A stretch of 64,000 bases of DNA from a phage, in the sequence record PQ724392.1; one strand, 5' to 3'. The position numbers were made by a program, and so were the translations under genes. Of this stretch, positions 41,931 to 45,236 are shown in pieces. Every line of letters begins with the position of its first letter. Position 1 is the stretch's first letter. Under the pieces are notes generated by a model that searched no databases, had not been told where the DNA came from, and saw nothing but the letters and a program-made list of their open reading frames with translations.

Positions 41931-43463
41931 TTATTTTAACCCGGTCTTTGACCAGTCGCCAAATACATCTTCGAATGTGTCTGCATGGTCTTTATCGAAA
42001 CGGAACCCTTTAATAATCGGCAGGAACAATGCAACCGTATTATCTTTACGAGTCTCGGAAGTCAACCAACCATTACATTCACAGTCGGCAATCATTCCAA
42101 CCAATTCACCTTTACGTGCTTTAACCATCAAGGCTTCACGGTCCATTTCATGACGCTCCTCAATCGGAATAGTAACCCATTTTTTGGTTTTCTTATCTTT
42201 GACTTGAGTTGTGTCTTTAAAACCAGAACCACAGTTATTTGTAATCTTACCACAAGAAGAACGAAGCACCACACCGCCAATCTTATTCGGGTCTTTATCG
42301 TGCTCGTAATATCCAATGATTTCCATTGCAATGTCAATTACTTCTTTGAACTTATACAGGTTCTTTGAGCGCTTGTTTTCCCAAATCGATGCCATGTTCT
42401 TAAGGATAATACCTTCAAGGCCTTCATCCACGTATTTCTTATAGATAACTTTCGCTTCATCAAGATTGTTAACAACATGGTTTTCAATCAGAATCATGCG
42501 GTCAAAACCATGCAGCACCACGTTATCTGCAATCATTTTTTCCAGAACAGCAAAACGCACATCGTATTTCAACGGATTGAGAATCTTAACATCAGAATAG
42601 ACTTCAATCAGCGGAACATAATCCCAAACCTGGAATTTCATACAAGAAGCTTCTGCTGCAGAAATAGTTCCTTTCAATGATTTGTTTGCCATACCATTTG
42701 AAAAGGTTCTTGATTCAGCAGTTTCTTTTGCAGGAGCAATCTCATCTGAATCGTCAAAAAGGAAGCCCAAACCGTCATTCTGGGGAGCTATTTTCTGTTC
42801 ATGGTATACTAACTCGCCATCAATTAAAACGCCCTCAGGATGTCTCTCACGCGCTTCACGGGTGGCTTCAATCAATTCCTTTTTAAGGAGGTCAAGCTTG
42901 AGGTACTCATTTCCGGCTCGGGATAACAATCGAACATCATCCAACTCATCGCCGCGAACTTCTGCAAAACACCGAGCGCCATCGGCTTTCAATTGTGCAA
43001 AGGCCGGGAACTTAATGTTCTTAGCAATACCAGCTTCATCATAAGAAGAAGCGAGCATCTGCGGTTGTTCAGGAATTAAACCTTTCCAAACCTTATTCGC
43101 AATCGATACAGATGCGCCACATTCCAGGTCACGCATCATCACACGCCGCAAGACTTCAACATCGGCCTTTTTACCATCTGCAATATAACCAGATAATTCC
43201 TCGATTGCCGCATTACCTGTTAATTTGCGAGAGGCTAATGTGAATTCGATAAAGTCAAGCATATCATCGATATTCAACATACCAAAGCTTTGAGTCGTTG
43301 CCCCAGGTTTTGGCCATTTCTTTATATAGAACTGGATGCCTTTGGAATATGTCAAACGATACACGCGTTTAAGGGTTTCATTATCAGAATACGATTCCAA
43401 GATAGCTTGTTTCTCTTTAGTAGAATCGGTTGCAGCAATTTCATTTAAAATATCTAAAATCAT
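41931..43463 (-). CDS. 30: ATP-dependent DNA ligase gp30
   Basis: 510 aa; near-collinear match to T4 DNA ligase, including the KADGARCF adenylation-site motif. Confidence 0.9.
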   Translation of the reverse strand: MILDILNEIAATDSTKEKQAILESYSDNETLKRVYRLTYSKGIQFYIKKWPKPGATTQSFGMLNIDDMLDFIEFTLASRKLTGNAAIEELSGYIADGKKADVEVLRRVMMRDLECGASVSIANKVWKGLIPEQPQMLASSYDEAGIAKNIKFPAFAQLKADGARCFAEVRGDELDDVRLLSRAGNEYLKLDLLKKELIEATREARERHPEGVLIDGELVYHEQKIAPQNDGLGFLFDDSDEIAPAKETAESRTFSNGMANKSLKGTISAAEASCMKFQVWDYVPLIEVYSDVKILNPLKYDVRFAVLEKMIADNVVLHGFDRMILIENHVVNNLDEAKVIYKKYVDEGLEGIILKNMASIWENKRSKNLYKFKEVIDIAMEIIGYYEHDKDPNKIGGVVLRSSCGKITNNCGSGFKDTTQVKDKKTKKWVTIPIEERHEMDREALMVKARKGELVGMIADCECNGWLTSETRKDNTVALFLPIIKGFRFDKDHADTFEDVFGDWSKTGLK

Positions 43464-43473
43464 TAATCACCTC

Positions 43474-43752
43474 TTAGTCGTTGACTCTATTATATGCCAC
43501 GTCTTCCAAAAGCAAATCCAGCCGCTTATGATAAGTGAACACAAATTTAGTTGCCCCGTCTGGTTTCATTTTGGTCATGAAGTGAATATAGATAAATCCT
43601 TGCTCAACGCATTCACGCCAAACGGGGTTATCTTTAGCCGGATTAATATCAAACGAGTAATTATGATTCACATGACGAATAAACTGATTAACATGACCGT
43701 AATCCATCGTGGTAGTTGGACCACGGTCAGAAATAGTATGAACGACAAACAT
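43474..43752 (-). CDS. Hypothetical protein (92 aa)
   Basis: Track ORF begins at TTG 43755; the ATG at 43752 overlaps the upstream stop (TGATG coupling). Confidence 0.45.
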   Translation of the reverse strand: MFVVHTISDRGPTTTMDYGHVNQFIRHVNHNYSFDINPAKDNPVWRECVEQGFIYIHFMTKMKPDGATKFVFTYHKRLDLLLEDVAYNRVND

Positions 43753-44576
43753 CAATTACCCCCTTGGCCACCGGTCGGTTGATTGTACCAGTATTCAATA
43801 CCAGTACCTACACGCTGGCCATATTGATATGGATATGCTGGATTATATCCAGGAGTCCACGGTTGACCAGGCTGCCAGCCTTGCTGCATTTGTTGTTGAA
43901 GGCGTCGAGTTTCACGAAACAGCTCTTCCAGTTTACGGAGTTCATCTGGAGTGAATTCTGGTTTGACCGGTTCATCTTTGTGTTTCAGTTTAAGCTGTCC
44001 AGCAACATCGTCCCAATTAAAAACTTTGGAAGCTGTTTTAGGAATAGCATCACGTTCGCCGCGGGCCATCCAATAAACCGGAACCTCAAGAATTTCACTC
44101 GCATGGTCGCAATGGTGTGCAAGGTCATCAATATAACAAATGACATTATATTTGTCTTTTGCCTTCTGAAACAAATCCTCTTTAGAGGCTGTATGACCAC
44201 ACATCATCACTTCTTTAAACGCCCCAGGGAACAAAGCATTCAGGTTGAATTGACGATTCAGGCGAGCATCAATAGAATCACCCAGGGCTGTAACAGCCAC
44301 AAAATCATATTGCTCTTTGAGGTTATTGATAACCCTTAATGCATCCGCATAAGGAGACAAATAGCGAATAAAGTCTGAACAGTTATATTTTTCAATTAAC
44401 TGCGCGCCTAACTCTTCATCACAATTGAAAAGTTTACCAGGGGTCACAAATTTTTCATCCTGAATCATCTTAAGGATATGTTCCAGGGGTAAATTATATT
44501 TTTGGGCGAAATAAGGTAAGCCAGACTGCCATGACAAACATACGCCATCAATATCTGTTAAAATAACGGGTTTCAT
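43752..44576 (-). CDS. HAD-superfamily hydrolase-like protein with Q/P/Y/G-rich low-complexity C-terminal tail
   Basis: N-terminal HAD motif I (VILTDIDGV) and a DD motif (YIDDLAHH); C-terminal ~50 aa rich in Q, P, G, Y, W; ATGA-coupled to the upstream NADAR-like gene. Confidence 0.55.
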   Translation of the reverse strand: MKPVILTDIDGVCLSWQSGLPYFAQKYNLPLEHILKMIQDEKFVTPGKLFNCDEELGAQLIEKYNCSDFIRYLSPYADALRVINNLKEQYDFVAVTALGDSIDARLNRQFNLNALFPGAFKEVMMCGHTASKEDLFQKAKDKYNVICYIDDLAHHCDHASEILEVPVYWMARGERDAIPKTASKVFNWDDVAGQLKLKHKDEPVKPEFTPDELRKLEELFRETRRLQQQMQQGWQPGQPWTPGYNPAYPYQYGQRVGTGIEYWYNQPTGGQGGN

Positions 44577-45031
44577 AATGCATCTCTCAATTGGTTAAGT
44601 ATGTCAATAAATTCTTGTTCAGTCAATATTGTATCATGAACAGTAAGGTGGCTCGCCATCGAATGCTTTAAAACTTTGCCTTTTGTGGATTGTAACGCGT
44701 CGCGAAACCCCCTGTTTTGGAGCGCTGCTTCAAAATATGCATTTGTATACAACTCTTTCCATGCTGCAGAGTATCTTGAAAAGGGAATTCCAAGCCAGAA
44801 AAGCGTCCCACGGTCCGCAGCTCTTGCATAAGCTCTTCCACTTTGCTGGGCGGCCAATCCGGACATCCCAAATATACGTTTTTGTTGTTCAACATTTCTC
44901 ACCTTGCACCCTTGTAGGAAGCCTTCAAGACCTCCAAACTGGATACCCTCCATAACAAAAGGCCATTTGGCAAAGTTACTTAATGCGCATGATGGCCACG
45001 GAAAATTGCTTCTTATTTCTAACTCAGACAT
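44573..45031 (-). CDS. NADAR/YbiA-like (DUF1768) domain protein, candidate ADP-ribose-processing hydrolase
   Basis: Motifs collinear with E. coli YbiA: LSNFAKWP (YbiA FSNFAAWP), GLEGFLQGCK (SEHYFQAQK), ...FRDALQSTKGKVLKHS (LRALLLATAPAKLVEH). Start placed at the internal ATG 45031 (8-nt overlap with the upstream ORF); an alternative start at 45106 would add a hydrophobic N-terminus. Confidence 0.55.
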   Translation of the reverse strand: MSELEIRSNFPWPSCALSNFAKWPFVMEGIQFGGLEGFLQGCKVRNVEQQKRIFGMSGLAAQQSGRAYARAADRGTLFWLGIPFSRYSAAWKELYTNAYFEAALQNRGFRDALQSTKGKVLKHSMASHLTVHDTILTEQEFIDILNQLRDAL

Positions 45032-45236
45032 CTTTGACACTGATAATATCCACATCAGCCCAATGACCATAACCAGGTAGACGGTCTTTAATAGATAATC
45101 CGCCATCAGATTTCAGCATTTTAATTGTTTTAGTATATGGTTCAATATTTCGGGCCCATGGACTTACATCAGTCACGCGATAAGTAACTTCGACCATTTC
45201 TGTTCCCAAAATTTTCTGAATCAGTTTCTTAAACAT
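45024..45236 (-). CDS. Hypothetical protein (70 aa)
   Basis: ORF in the coupled operon downstream of gp30. Confidence 0.4.
   Translation of the reverse strand: MFKKLIQKILGTEMVEVTYRVTDVSPWARNIEPYTKTIKMLKSDGGLSIKDRLPGYGHWADVDIISVKDV

What the first reader, a model, noticed from the sequence alone, without database searches (positions are those of the whole stretch)
43752..43910. Low-complexity Q/P/G/Y/W-rich C-terminal tail on the HAD-like protein
The last ~50 residues (QQQMQQGWQPGQPWTPGYNPAYPYQYGQRVGTGIEYWYNQPTGGQGGN) are aromatic- and Gln/Pro-rich with little predicted structure, which is atypical for a small phage metabolic enzyme. Such tails can mediate condensate formation, cell-wall or protein binding, or be a remnant of a fused domain.
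Basis: seen in the sequence. Interest (0 to 1): 0.4.

Follow-up and report, generated by a model that had tools for sequence, protein, structure and literature searches.

The report
Disordered enzyme tail carrying docking motif
The odd Gln/Pro/Gly/Tyr/Trp-rich end of this T4-type phage phosphatase (gp30.2) is real and under selection, and it looks like a floppy tether ending in a 12-residue peptide (GTGIEYWYNQPT) that also turns up in unrelated small phage proteins, so it probably docks the enzyme onto a partner that is still unknown.

Summary
The last 48 residues of the minus-strand ORF 43752..44576 are 75% Q/P/G/Y/W, against 19±7% for other ORFs in the window. The ORF is the orthologue of T4 gene 30.2 and has a HAD phosphatase fold.

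The tail is not a frameshift artefact. Within the genus its dN/dS is 0.02-0.06 at dS 0.4-0.56, like the core.

AlphaFold2 gives a confident core (residues 1-200) and helix (210-232), then a low-confidence tail (pLDDT 44-65). An orthologue from another genus gives the same picture.

About half of the orthologue clusters have long tails. Pro and Trp enrichment is general, but the Q/G richness is specific to Gaprivervirus.

One island is conserved across genera with synonymous codon drift: G-T-G-I-E-Y-[L/W]-x-x-Q-P-T (residues 257-268). The same peptide occurs in at least four unrelated small phage or metagenomic proteins. One of them matches 15 of 15 residues with about 8 synonymous differences.

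The best reading is a disordered tether presenting a portable docking motif, with the partner unknown. A T4 sliding-clamp (gp45) epitope resemblance is only a lead. The prion-like or condensate reading is weakly supported: Q+N is 14 per 80 residues and the composition is not conserved. The last codons also carry the ribosome-binding site and start codon of gene 30.1.

The parts
43752..44576 (-). Whole gene: orthologue of T4 gene 30.2 (274 aa), a HAD-fold phosphatase with a C-terminal extension.
   Evidence: ORF listing. phrog_420 hit at E=1e-78. 100% identical to Escherichia phage EAWsc9 and 97% to VR26, whose record annotates it 'similar to T4 gp30.2'.
43992..44576 (-). Catalytic HAD core, residues 1-195. 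Motif I is D8-x-D10; T96, K132 and D150-D151 are conserved.
   Evidence: Invariant columns across 69 orthologues. AF2 pLDDT 93-98. Foldseek against PDB hits HAD hydrolases, including 5'(3')-deoxyribonucleotidases 2jao, 2i7d and 1mh9, at E about 1e-7. BFVD hits are phage '5' nucleotidase' proteins.
43881..43991 (-). Linker (residues 196-209) and amphipathic helix (residues 210-232, PDELRKLEELFRETRRLQQQMQQ).
   Evidence: AF2 predicts helix 210-232 with pLDDT about 88-93. The CC31-type orthologue has an equivalent long helix 194-224. An amphipathic helix is present in all long-tail classes.
43809..43880 (-). Disordered Pro/aromatic-rich spacer, residues 233-256 (GWQPGQPWTPGYNPAYPYQYGQRV). It includes the semi-conserved W-x-x-P-G...P-[WY]-Y pattern.
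   Evidence: pLDDT 49-65. W234 and P249 are at least 90% conserved in alignment A1. Composition drifts between genera. Close relatives differ by indels here: QR is deleted in L013.
43773..43808 (-). Conserved short linear motif G-T-G-I-E-Y-W-Y-N-Q-P-T (residues 257-268). This is the proposed docking peptide.
   Evidence: E is invariant and Y, P and T are at least 90% conserved across 16 tails. Third-codon positions vary while the residues are kept. There are no amino-acid changes among Gaprivervirus relatives. AF2 predicts a one-turn helix at EYWY, or IEYLN in the orthologue, at low pLDDT. The motif recurs in unrelated proteins. It occurs only once in the 64-kb window.
43752..43772 (-). Last six codons (GGQGGN) plus the stop. 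The DNA also carries the Shine-Dalgarno sequence AAGGGGG (43759..43765), and the stop overlaps the ATG start of gene 30.1 (TGATG).
   Evidence: The sequence reads ...GGC CAA GGG GGT AAT TGA TG.... T4 has the analogous CAA GGA (AAGGA) at the same place. That these bases act as the ribosome-binding site is inferred from position and consensus.
43474..43752 (-). Context: gene 30.1 (DUF3045), translationally coupled to 30.2.
   Evidence: Pfam PF11243 at E=3.6e-18. It is present downstream of every tail-bearing 30.2 examined, but also downstream of several tail-less ones.
41931..43463 (-). Context: ATP-dependent DNA ligase (gp30). It lies just downstream of 30.2, with or without 30.1 between, in most related loci.
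   Evidence: Pfam PF01068. Synteny in most of the 79 related loci; a minority show no ligase match within the flank.
44573..45106 (-). Context: gene 30.3, a NADAR domain protein, equal to AdfN (anti-DarTG1) in T4.
   Evidence: Pfam PF08010 at E=2e-63. The T4 function comes from PMC11825919. It is absent from CC31-type phages that keep the tail motif.

Best explanation
The tail is a genuine, selected C-terminal extension of the gp30.2 HAD phosphatase. It works as a flexible tether with a docking peptide at its end. The parts, in order, are the catalytic core (residues 1-195), a linker and amphipathic helix (196-232), a disordered Pro/aromatic-rich spacer of about 24 residues, the 12-residue motif G-T-G-I-E-Y-[W/L]-x-x-Q-P-T (257-268), and six terminal residues whose codons double as the ribosome-binding site and start of gene 30.1. 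The spacer's exact sequence and its Q/G richness are free to drift. Shown: the tail is coding, is under purifying selection and is predicted disordered, and the motif is conserved at the protein level and recurs in unrelated phage proteins. Inferred: the motif folds on binding (it has a one-turn helix propensity at EY[WL]) and recruits the phosphatase to a partner protein or complex. The partner is not identified.
For: (1) The sequence is real coding sequence. Against three Gaprivervirus relatives, tail dN/dS is 0.02-0.06 at dS 0.41-0.56. The core gives 0.01-0.03.
(2) It is predicted disordered. pLDDT is 44-65 for residues 233-274, against above 93 for the core. A CC31-type orthologue gives the same result.
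(3) It shows a conserved island in variable flanks. Against T4, tail dN is 0.49 and core dN is 0.12. The motif nevertheless persists in Gaprivervirus, Tequatrovirus (GG[IV]EYLYNRPT), CC31-type, Cronobacter and Citrobacter phages, with third-position codon drift.
(4) The motif is portable. A profile built only from 30.2 tails retrieved small unrelated proteins that end in ...GTGIEYLxxQPTSK. A motif profile run against 1.84e9 representative proteins added three kinds of hit. P0123 carries PYGVGTGIEYWYNQPT, 15 of 15 identical to a Gaprivervirus tail (L013) but with about 8 synonymous codon differences. P0129 is Cys-rich. Further members of the small family have different N-termini.
(5) The carriers are phage-like. 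One sits in a prophage-like replication module, and its N-domain homologue in Cobetia phage Carin1 lacks the tail. Another sits on a 22.7-kb phage contig with tail genes.
(6) Pro (13%) and Trp (4.6%) enrichment is common to long tails of all clades. Q/G richness is not.
(7) No RNA structure explains the conservation (z = -0.29).
Against: No partner was identified, and no binding was tested.
- About half of the orthologue clusters have no long tail, including very close relatives of 196-202 aa.
- Some T4-like phages carry a decayed motif, PGDAGYFNRLT. The motif is therefore dispensable.
- Other clades end in different peptides (..DLRAYYG....[DE]Y.LLN....NDWWN....ALRASF). A single common partner is therefore not guaranteed.
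- E-values of the first, unbiased profile search were individually weak, 0.3-8 against 5.8e9 proteins. The later profile included those hits, so its E-values for them are circular. One hit (P0125) and the single bacterial-genome hit (L109) look like chance.
- The non-30.2 carriers are predicted ORFs on short metagenomic contigs.
- A single-chain AF2 model cannot exclude docking in cis or across a dimer.
Confidence: 0.6

Rival explanations
1. A specific version of the docking idea: the motif is a sliding-clamp (gp45) binding epitope. It would tether the phosphatase to the replisome or clamp, next to the ligase it is encoded with.
For: The T4 clamp ligands end in hydrophobic, acidic peptides on divergent unstructured linkers (PMC2988020). 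These are gp43 ...SLDFLFG*, gp55 ...SLDFLYEAND* and gp33 ...LDFLL*. I scanned all ORFs of at least 40 aa in 131 kb of T4 for [ILVM][DE][FYW][LIM][FYW] in the last 30 residues. The scan hit only gp43, gp55 and gp30.2 (IEYLY). Gene 30.2 sits just upstream of DNA ligase in most related loci. One unrelated motif carrier lies in a phage replication module that encodes its own beta-clamp and SSB.
Against: The pattern was written after seeing the sequences, and about 0.3-1 chance hits are expected. The 30.2 motif is longer (G-T-G before, Q-P-T after), is not at the extreme C-terminus, and lacks the second aromatic in CC31-type phages (IEYLN/T/D/M). The gp55 match reaches the C-terminus across genera, whereas 30.2 tail ends differ between clades. 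The other carriers come from non-T4 phages without a known gp45.
Confidence: 0.15
2. An intramolecular or oligomeric role: the motif docks back on the HAD core or on the partner subunit of a dimer, as a lid, an auto-inhibitor or an assembly strap.
For: The related deoxyribonucleotidases are, as I recall, dimers. The helix 210-232 is predicted with high confidence and may pack on the core. Conserved C-terminal peptides often regulate active sites.
Against: Two AF2 runs, with 22 tail-bearing sequences in the alignment, give pLDDT 41-65 for the motif and so no confident docking. The same motif occurs on proteins with no HAD domain. Tail-less orthologues keep all catalytic residues.
Confidence: 0.1
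3. A low-complexity, prion-like or condensate-forming domain. Its composition (I recall it as resembling the G/Q/P-rich SSB linker or FUS-type Y/G/Q domains) would drive phase separation or partitioning into replication foci.
For: The composition is extreme: 75% Q/P/G/Y/W, 17% aromatic, almost uncharged. The segment is predicted disordered. From memory, the E. coli SSB linker is similarly G/Q/P-rich with W and F; this was not checked here.
Against: Q/G richness is limited to Gaprivervirus. Tails of other genera average 10% Q+N, 7% G and 20% charged residues. The segment is only about 42 residues. Q+N peaks at 14 per 80 residues, against the 30 per 80 Q/N-rich criterion as I recall it. What is conserved is a specific peptide, not a composition.
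Confidence: 0.07
4. A cis-acting nascent-peptide element. The Pro/Trp-rich segment plus ...QPT would slow or pause the ribosome near the end of 30.2. This would tune translational coupling into 30.1 and ligase.
For: The pattern of a variable N-terminus with a conserved C-terminal 15-35 residues, in small ORFs and in 30.2, resembles arrest peptides. Pro and Trp are enriched. The 30.2 stop overlaps the 30.1 start, and the ribosome-binding site lies in the last codons. The ribosome is a partner common to all hosts, which would explain portability across contigs of 36-55% GC.
Against: The distance from motif to stop varies from 2 to about 50 residues. There is no known arrest signature (no RAGP, RAPP or PPP). 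No mRNA structure sequesters the downstream start (z = -0.29). Nothing here tests pausing.
Confidence: 0.05
5. Non-functional extension or artefact: a frameshifted or read-through tail, or neutral junk tolerated at the C-terminus.
For: Half of the orthologues lack the tail. Indels occur between close relatives. Some database entries are clearly aberrant: P0003 has a truncated odd tail, and P0021 reads through into 30.1.
Against: dN/dS is 0.02-0.06 with abundant synonymous change in this frame. The motif is kept across genera with codon drift. The tail is identical in independent genomes.
Confidence: 0.03

Closest known systems
Bacteriophage T4 gp30.2 (NP_049815, 278 aa, function unknown)
   Same: It is the orthologue: 66% identity over residues 1-270. 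It has the same position between 30.3 and 30.1/ligase. It has the same architecture of core, helix, aromatic/Pro-rich tail and the motif GG[IV]EYLYNRPT.
   Different: The T4 tail is N/H/Y/P/T-rich rather than Q/G-rich. The motif has GG for GTG and R for Q. Tail dN is 0.49 against 0.12 for the core. I found no paper on gp30.2 or on the motif in the library searched.
C-terminal sliding-clamp-binding epitopes of T4 gp43, gp55 and gp33 (SLDFLFG, SLDFLYEAND, LDFLL)
   Same: A short hydrophobic/acidic/aromatic peptide sits at the end of a divergent, length-variable, unstructured linker. It is physico-chemically parallel to [IV]-E-Y-L-Y in T4 gp30.2.
   Different: The 30.2 motif carries additional conserved residues (G-T-G, Q-P-T). 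It lies 2-13 residues from the end, or further. It varies between clades while the clamp epitope does not. No binding has been shown.
Bacterial SSB: OB fold, G/Q/P-rich disordered linker and conserved C-terminal tip (from memory, not checked here)
   Same: A folded domain is followed by a low-complexity G/Q/P-rich spacer that ends in a short conserved peptide acting as a protein-docking hub. The Gaprivervirus spacer composition resembles the SSB linker.
   Different: The tip here is neutral and aromatic, not acidic (DDDIPF). The spacer is much shorter. There is no DNA-binding domain.
5'(3')-deoxyribonucleotidases (cdN/mdN, NT5C family) and phage HAD '5' nucleotidases'
   Same: The core has the same fold and the DxD catalytic motif. 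These give the best low-rmsd Foldseek hits (2i7d_B at rmsd 4.3 over 209 columns, E about 1e-6) and a weak sequence hit to 2jao.
   Different: The sequence match is below significance (E=0.08-0.28) and Pfam gives no hit. Those enzymes have no comparable C-terminal tail. The substrate of gp30.2 is unknown.
Prion-like or FUS-type low-complexity domains
   Same: The composition is enriched in Q, G, Y and P, with few charges, and the segment is predicted disordered.
   Different: The segment is too short. Q+N is 14 per 80 residues. The composition is not conserved among orthologues, whereas a specific peptide is.

Membership tests
T4 gp30.2 family (phrog_420) | Full-length sequence similarity to the family profile and to T4 gp30.2. 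| tested here: met
   phrog_420 at E=1e-78 over residues 1-268. tblastn finds 1439 phage records. The VR26 record annotates its copy 'similar to T4 gp30.2'.
T4 gp30.2 family (phrog_420) | Conserved position upstream of 30.1 and DNA ligase. | tested here: met
   The order 30.3-30.2-30.1-ligase is seen in the window and in most related loci.
HAD (haloacid dehalogenase-like) phosphatase superfamily | Catalytic motifs I-IV: DxD nucleophile/acid, then T/S, K and DD. | tested here: met
   D8, D10, K132, D150 and D151 are invariant, and T96 is at least 90% conserved, in 69 orthologues.
HAD (haloacid dehalogenase-like) phosphatase superfamily | Rossmann-like HAD fold with a helical cap. | tested here: met
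   The AF2 core has pLDDT above 93. Foldseek probability is 1.00 to many HAD structures.
NT5C 5'(3')-deoxyribonucleotidase family | Significant match to the family sequence model or to solved members. | tested here: not met
   No Pfam or NCBIfam hit. The profile against PDB gives 2jao at E=0.08. The resemblance is at fold level only.
NT5C 5'(3')-deoxyribonucleotidase family | Deoxyribonucleotide phosphatase activity. | not testable with these tools
   An enzyme assay is needed.
Short linear motif (SLiM/MoRF) on a disordered tether | Lies in an intrinsically disordered region. | tested here: met
   pLDDT is 44-65 in two independent models. This is a proxy for disorder.
Short linear motif (SLiM/MoRF) on a disordered tether | A short conserved island flanked by fast-evolving sequence, conserved at the protein level. 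| tested here: met
   Alignments A1, A3 and A4. Synonymous codon drift across the motif. dN values for tail and core.
Short linear motif (SLiM/MoRF) on a disordered tether | Recurrence in otherwise unrelated proteins. | tested here: met
   P0117-P0122, P0123, P0124, P0126-P0129 and the ORFs on L095-L098. Caveat: these are predicted ORFs, and some E-values are circular or weak.
Short linear motif (SLiM/MoRF) on a disordered tether | A defined binding partner and interface. | not testable with these tools
Co-occurrence argues against 30.3 as an obligatory partner and leaves 30.1 open within the 30.2 family.
T4 gp45 clamp-binding epitope | A hydrophobic/acidic/aromatic peptide at the extreme C-terminus. 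| tested here: inconclusive
   IEYLY in T4 gp30.2 matches a post-hoc pattern shared only with gp43 and gp55. It lies 15 residues from the C-terminus in T4 gp30.2 and varies between clades.
T4 gp45 clamp-binding epitope | Binding to gp45. | not testable with these tools
   No experiment or complex model was possible.
Q/N-rich prion-like domain | At least 30 Q+N in an 80-residue window (Michelitsch-Weissman criterion, from memory), and a conserved compositional bias. | tested here: not met
   The maximum is 14 Q+N per 80 residues. Q/G richness is absent from orthologous tails.

The most novel reading that the evidence does not exclude
G-[TS]-G-I-E-Y-[LW]-x-x-Q-P-[TA] is an undescribed, portable docking peptide. 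Unrelated phage early proteins would use it to plug into one conserved hub of the infected cell, for example a replisome or sliding-clamp component or another universal bacterial machine. The carriers are the gp30.2 phosphatase of several T4-type genera, a family of about 76-81-residue proteins with interchangeable N-termini, Cys-rich small proteins, and a prophage replication-module protein. The gp30.2 tail would then be the first handle on that hub.
Probability: 0.3. Interest if true: 0.7.

Novelty: new member of a known kind. Interest (0 to 1): 0.42.

Why it matters
Gene 30.2 has no function assigned in the T4 record or in the papers I could search, although it is conserved and sits between DNA ligase and the anti-DarTG1 factor AdfN (30.3). 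Separating the tail into drifting spacer and a 12-residue conserved peptide turns a vague 'odd composition' into a testable reagent. A synthetic peptide or a two-residue mutant could identify what the enzyme is recruited to, and so suggest its substrate and role.

If the same peptide really serves unrelated phage proteins, it marks a shared target in infected cells. It could then be used to find further phage effectors by motif. If no partner is found, the result is still useful: the tail is an ordinary accessory, lineage-variable extension, not a prion-like domain and not an assembly error.

Tried and rejected
- **Frameshift or artefact.** Rejected by dN/dS and by the tail's presence in independent genomes.
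- **Overlapping gene on the other strand.** ORF 43764..44339 (+, 191 aa) was treated as spurious. Conservation follows the minus-strand frame.
- **RNA structure as the source of conservation.** The 201-nt 3' region folds no better than shuffles (z = -0.29). A 10-bp hairpin inside the motif codons is specific to this lineage.
- **Promoter and terminator scan.** Counts were at shuffle level.
- **30.3 (AdfN) or 30.1 (DUF3045) as the tail's partner, tested by co-occurrence.**
  - CC31-type phages keep the motif but lack 30.3.
  - 30.1 is present behind all tailed copies once diverged copies are recognised. It is also present behind tail-less copies (P0006-P0008, RB69-type).
  - No DUF3045 was recorded near the one other motif carrier with Pfam annotation (L001).
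  - The result is not informative beyond 'a tail implies 30.1'.
- **RB69-type 'VEWI' ending.** I first took it for a mini-motif. By alignment it belongs to the conserved helix, so I dropped it.
- **Acinetobacter-type 'LHYL'.** It is part of the last core helix, not the motif.
- **Sequence families for the core.** Pfam and NCBIfam gave no hit, and PDB sequence searches were not significant.
- **Literature.** Nothing was found on gp30.2 or on the motif string. The only text hit for GTGIEYL is an unrelated antisense ORF of eno.
- **Motif DNA-pattern scans.**
  - IMG/VR returned only T4-type 30.2 genes.
  - GTDB genomes returned 0 hits, then 1 probable chance hit.
  - Metagenomes returned four small-ORF loci.
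- **Identifying the phages that carry the other motif proteins.** No match in cultured-phage records, and the PHROG hits were uninformative.
Full report
**What is there.** The coordinates 43752..43910 are the stop codon and last 52 codons of a minus-strand ORF, 43752..44576 (274 aa). The peptide is TRRLQQQMQQGWQPGQPWTPGYNPAYPYQYGQRVGTGIEYWYNQPTGGQGGN. Its last 48 residues are 75% Q/P/G/Y/W. All ORFs of at least 100 aa in the window average 19% with sd 7%. Only this tail reaches 75%, and its entropy is in the lowest 0.4%.

**Which gene.**
- The protein is 100% identical to a hypothetical protein of Escherichia phage EAWsc9 and 97% identical to that of VR26 (genus Gaprivervirus). The VR26 record calls it 'similar to T4 gp30.2'.
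- It matches phrog_420 (unknown function, E=1e-78) but no Pfam or NCBIfam model.
- The minus-strand neighbours are 30.3, 30.1 and DNA ligase. Gene 30.3 is a NADAR protein, known in T4 as AdfN, which counters DarTG1 (PMC11825919). Gene 30.1 is DUF3045.
- An AlphaFold2 model built on 69 orthologues gives a confident core with a HAD fold. The nearest solved structures include 5'(3')-deoxyribonucleotidases, and the nearest viral models are phage '5' nucleotidases'.
- D8, D10, K132, D150 and D151 are invariant, so the enzyme is probably active. The substrate is unknown.

**Is the tail real coding sequence?** Yes. Against three Gaprivervirus relatives the tail has dS 0.41-0.56 but dN 0.010-0.029, giving dN/dS 0.02-0.06. 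The core gives 0.01-0.03. A frameshifted or non-functional tail would not show this. Against T4 the tail diverges four times faster than the core (dN 0.49 against 0.12), and the linker and helix faster still. Close relatives also differ by small in-frame indels in the spacer and at the very end.

**Anatomy.**
- AF2 predicts residues 1-200 at pLDDT above 93.
- A helix at 210-232 has pLDDT about 88-93.
- Residues 233-274 have pLDDT 44-65, with a single helical turn at E261-Y264.
- A second model, of a CC31-type orthologue that is 54% identical, gives the same picture, with the turn on IEYLN.
- The extreme end, GGC CAA GGG GGT AAT TGA TG, contains a Shine-Dalgarno-like AAGGGGG 6 nt before the ATG of 30.1, and that ATG overlaps the 30.2 stop. 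T4 has CAA GGA at the same place. The final 'QGG' is therefore constrained by the next gene's ribosome-binding site. This last point is inferred from position.

**Comparison of orthologues.**
- Among about 115 clusters of homologues (196-347 aa), roughly half have a tail of at least 40 residues beyond the core. The other half have almost none.
- Tail-less forms include very close relatives (75-82% identical cores, 196-202 aa), so the tail has been lost repeatedly.
- Long tails share a helix followed by a Pro-rich (13%) and Trp-rich (4.6%) segment.
- Q+N (24%) and G (22%) richness with few charges (4%) is peculiar to Gaprivervirus. The averages over all tails are 10%, 7% and 20%.
- Different clades end in different short aromatic peptides: GTGIEY[LW]xxQPT..DLRAYYG....[DE]Y.LLN....NDWWN....ALRASF.

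**The conserved island.**
- The peptide G-T-G-I-E-Y-[L/W]-x-x-Q-P-T is shared by Gaprivervirus, Tequatrovirus (as GG[IV]EYLYNRPT), CC31-type Enterobacter and Klebsiella phages, and Cronobacter and Citrobacter phages. Their cores are only about 50% identical.
- E is invariant, and Y, P and T are at least 90% conserved.
- Codon third positions differ freely across these phages, so selection acts on the peptide.
- The motif occurs once in the 64-kb window.
- It is not indispensable. Two T4-like contigs carry an in-frame decayed version, PGDAGYFNRLT.

**Portability.** A profile made only from 30.2 tails, searched against 5.8e9 proteins, returned small unrelated proteins that carry the motif at their C-terminal end.
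- One family of 76-81 residues ends in ...LTGGILPxSEPxxxPxxGTGIEYLxxQPTSK.
- P0119 (93 aa) ends in ...GTGTGIEYLKSSPT....
- P0120 (96 aa) is Cys-rich.

Individually these had weak E-values (0.3-8). However, matches such as GTGTGIEYLKRQPTSK against GTGTGIEYLNRQPTSK (15 of 16) are far beyond chance by simple residue-frequency arithmetic, which is my estimate.

A motif profile that included those hits was then run with HMMER over 1.84e9 representatives.
- It added P0123 (152 aa). Its internal PYGVGTGIEYWYNQPT is 15 of 15 identical to a Gaprivervirus tail (L013), yet differs at about 8 synonymous codon positions.
- It added P0129 and further members of the small family with different N-termini.
- One hit, P0125, is a repeat protein and probably false.

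The genomic contexts are phage-like.
- P0119 lies in a prophage-like replication module with integrase, repressor, MazG, exonuclease, a beta-clamp and SSB.
- Its N-domain has a homologue in Cobetia phage Carin1 that stops before the tail.
- A 22.7-kb metagenomic contig with tail genes carries a member of the small family.
- GC content of the carriers ranges from 36 to 55%.
- Scans of bacterial species genomes gave 0 hits, then one probable chance hit.
- IMG/VR returned only T4-type 30.2 genes.

**Mechanism.** The pattern fits a short linear motif presented on a tether. It combines a folded enzyme, a rapidly drifting disordered spacer, a small peptide kept at the protein level with helical propensity, and reuse of that peptide on unrelated proteins. 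I therefore read the tail as a recruitment device. The spacer's low complexity is incidental, and the 12-mer carries the function. The steps shown are coding status, selection, predicted disorder, motif conservation and motif recurrence. The steps inferred are binding and recruitment.

**Who is the partner?** I could not determine this.
- Co-occurrence argues against 30.3, which is absent from CC31-type phages that keep the motif.
- Gene 30.1 is uninformative. After recognising diverged copies it is present behind every tailed gene, but it is also behind tail-less ones. No DUF3045 was recorded near the one other motif carrier with Pfam annotation (L001).
- A lead is the T4 sliding clamp. Its known ligands gp43, gp55 and gp33 end in SLDFLFG, SLDFLYEAND and LDFLL on divergent unstructured linkers.
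- A scan of 131 kb of T4 for [ILVM][DE][FYW][LIM][FYW] in ORF C-termini hits only gp43, gp55 and gp30.2.
- That pattern was chosen after the fact, and about 0.3-1 chance hits are expected.
- The 30.2 motif has extra conserved residues and is not at the extreme terminus.
- The gp55 match reaches the C-terminus across genera, while 30.2 tail ends vary between clades.
- I give the clamp idea about 15%.

**Rivals.**
- A cis or dimer docking role is not supported by two AF2 runs, or by the motif's presence on proteins without a HAD domain. It is not excluded.
- A condensate or prion-like role fits the local composition. It does not fit the tail's length, its Q+N count (14 per 80 residues) or its lack of compositional conservation.
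- A nascent-peptide pausing role would explain portability across hosts and the Pro/Trp bias. It has no direct support. The motif-to-stop distance varies from 2 to about 50 residues, and no mRNA structure is present.
- An artefact is excluded.

**Comparison with what is known, and novelty.**
- The gene is a member of the T4 gp30.2 family and of the HAD superfamily. Membership of the NT5C deoxyribonucleotidase family is not met at sequence level.
- The tail works like known tethered docking peptides (clamp-binding epitopes, and from memory the SSB tip and the RNR beta tail), but it is not shown to belong to any of them.
- I found no paper on gp30.2 or on the motif in the library searched.
- I class it as a new member of a known kind: a short linear motif on a disordered tail.
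- Interest is moderate. The tail itself is ordinary for an accessory phage protein. The recurring 12-mer is a concrete and cheap experimental handle on a conserved T4 gene of unknown function, and possibly on a shared target of several phage proteins.

Noticed in passing
L095:3131-3358(-), L097:8268-8495(-), L096:459-662(-), L003:643-888(+); proteins P0117, P0118, P0121, P0122, P0124, P0126-P0128: A family of 75-81-residue predicted phage proteins shares a roughly 33-residue C-terminal module, [LY][HY]LTGG(I/D)xPxSxP....G[TS]GIEYLxxQP[TA]SK*. The N-terminal halves look unrelated to one another. A neighbouring ORF in L098 (1217-1456, -) has the LHLTGGILPP part alone. The LxLTGG segment is reminiscent of ubiquitin-like C-termini, but the N-terminal parts are too short or too helical for a beta-grasp fold.
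   Followed up: partly
L103:41-499 (P0123): A 152-residue protein from a 1.1-kb contig (GC 42%) carries PYGVGTGIEYWYNQPT internally. It is followed by about 50 residues that end in a G/S-rich stretch. The contig has no match in the cultured-phage collection.
   Followed up: partly
window 43752-43772: The 30.2 stop overlaps the 30.1 start (TGATG). The last codons of 30.2 (CAA GGG GGT) form the likely Shine-Dalgarno sequence of 30.1. Part of the terminal Gly richness is therefore imposed by the next gene.
   Followed up: yes
window 43776-43808: The motif codons GGTACTGGTATTGAATACTGGTAC contain an 8-nt direct repeat (TACTGGTA) and can form a 10-bp hairpin with two G-U pairs. This is seen only in this lineage and is not conserved in T4 or CC31-type phages.
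   Followed up: partly
L016:3001-3855, L017:3001-3849: Two T4-like contigs have an in-frame degraded motif (PGDAGYFNRLTSG in place of PGGIEYLYNRPTSG) and a longer His/Tyr-rich spacer. This looks like natural loss of the motif within Tequatrovirus relatives.
   Followed up: partly
P0063, P0064, L043:3001-3939, L083:3001-3939: Yersinia phage phiR1-RT-type 30.2 orthologues replace the tail with an unrelated C-terminal region of about 115 residues (...KHPKGFGWVYxSNRKNLxEEYTKRFL) that looks like a folded domain.
   Followed up: no
P0021 (302 aa); compare L028:3001-3886: One cluster is a read-through fusion of a short-tailed 30.2 core with the complete DUF3045 (30.1) protein. It is either a natural fusion or an assembly error. 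If it is real, it links 30.2 and 30.1 functionally.
   Followed up: no
P0096 (347 aa): A distant 30.2 homologue carries a 150-residue acidic tail that ends in a Cys-rich segment (...CVGCSKEGP...YYCGGAPWCCP).
   Followed up: no
window 44573-45106 (-): The ORF for 30.3 (NADAR, AdfN) runs 177 aa from its first ATG. The Pfam match starts at residue 37, and VR26 and T4 annotate 152 aa. The true start is therefore probably the internal Met near 45031. An internal alternative-frame ORF (30.3') is annotated in VR26 and T4.
   Followed up: no
window 41931-43463 (-): The DNA ligase here is 510 aa, against 487 aa in T4 (69% identity), so it carries extra residues. In most related loci, ligase follows 30.2 directly or after 30.1.
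   Followed up: no
L001:10001-10282 and neighbours: The motif-bearing P0119 sits between a MazG-like gene and a DUF3799 exonuclease gene in a prophage-like region. The region also encodes its own DnaN-type sliding clamp and an SSB.
   Followed up: partly
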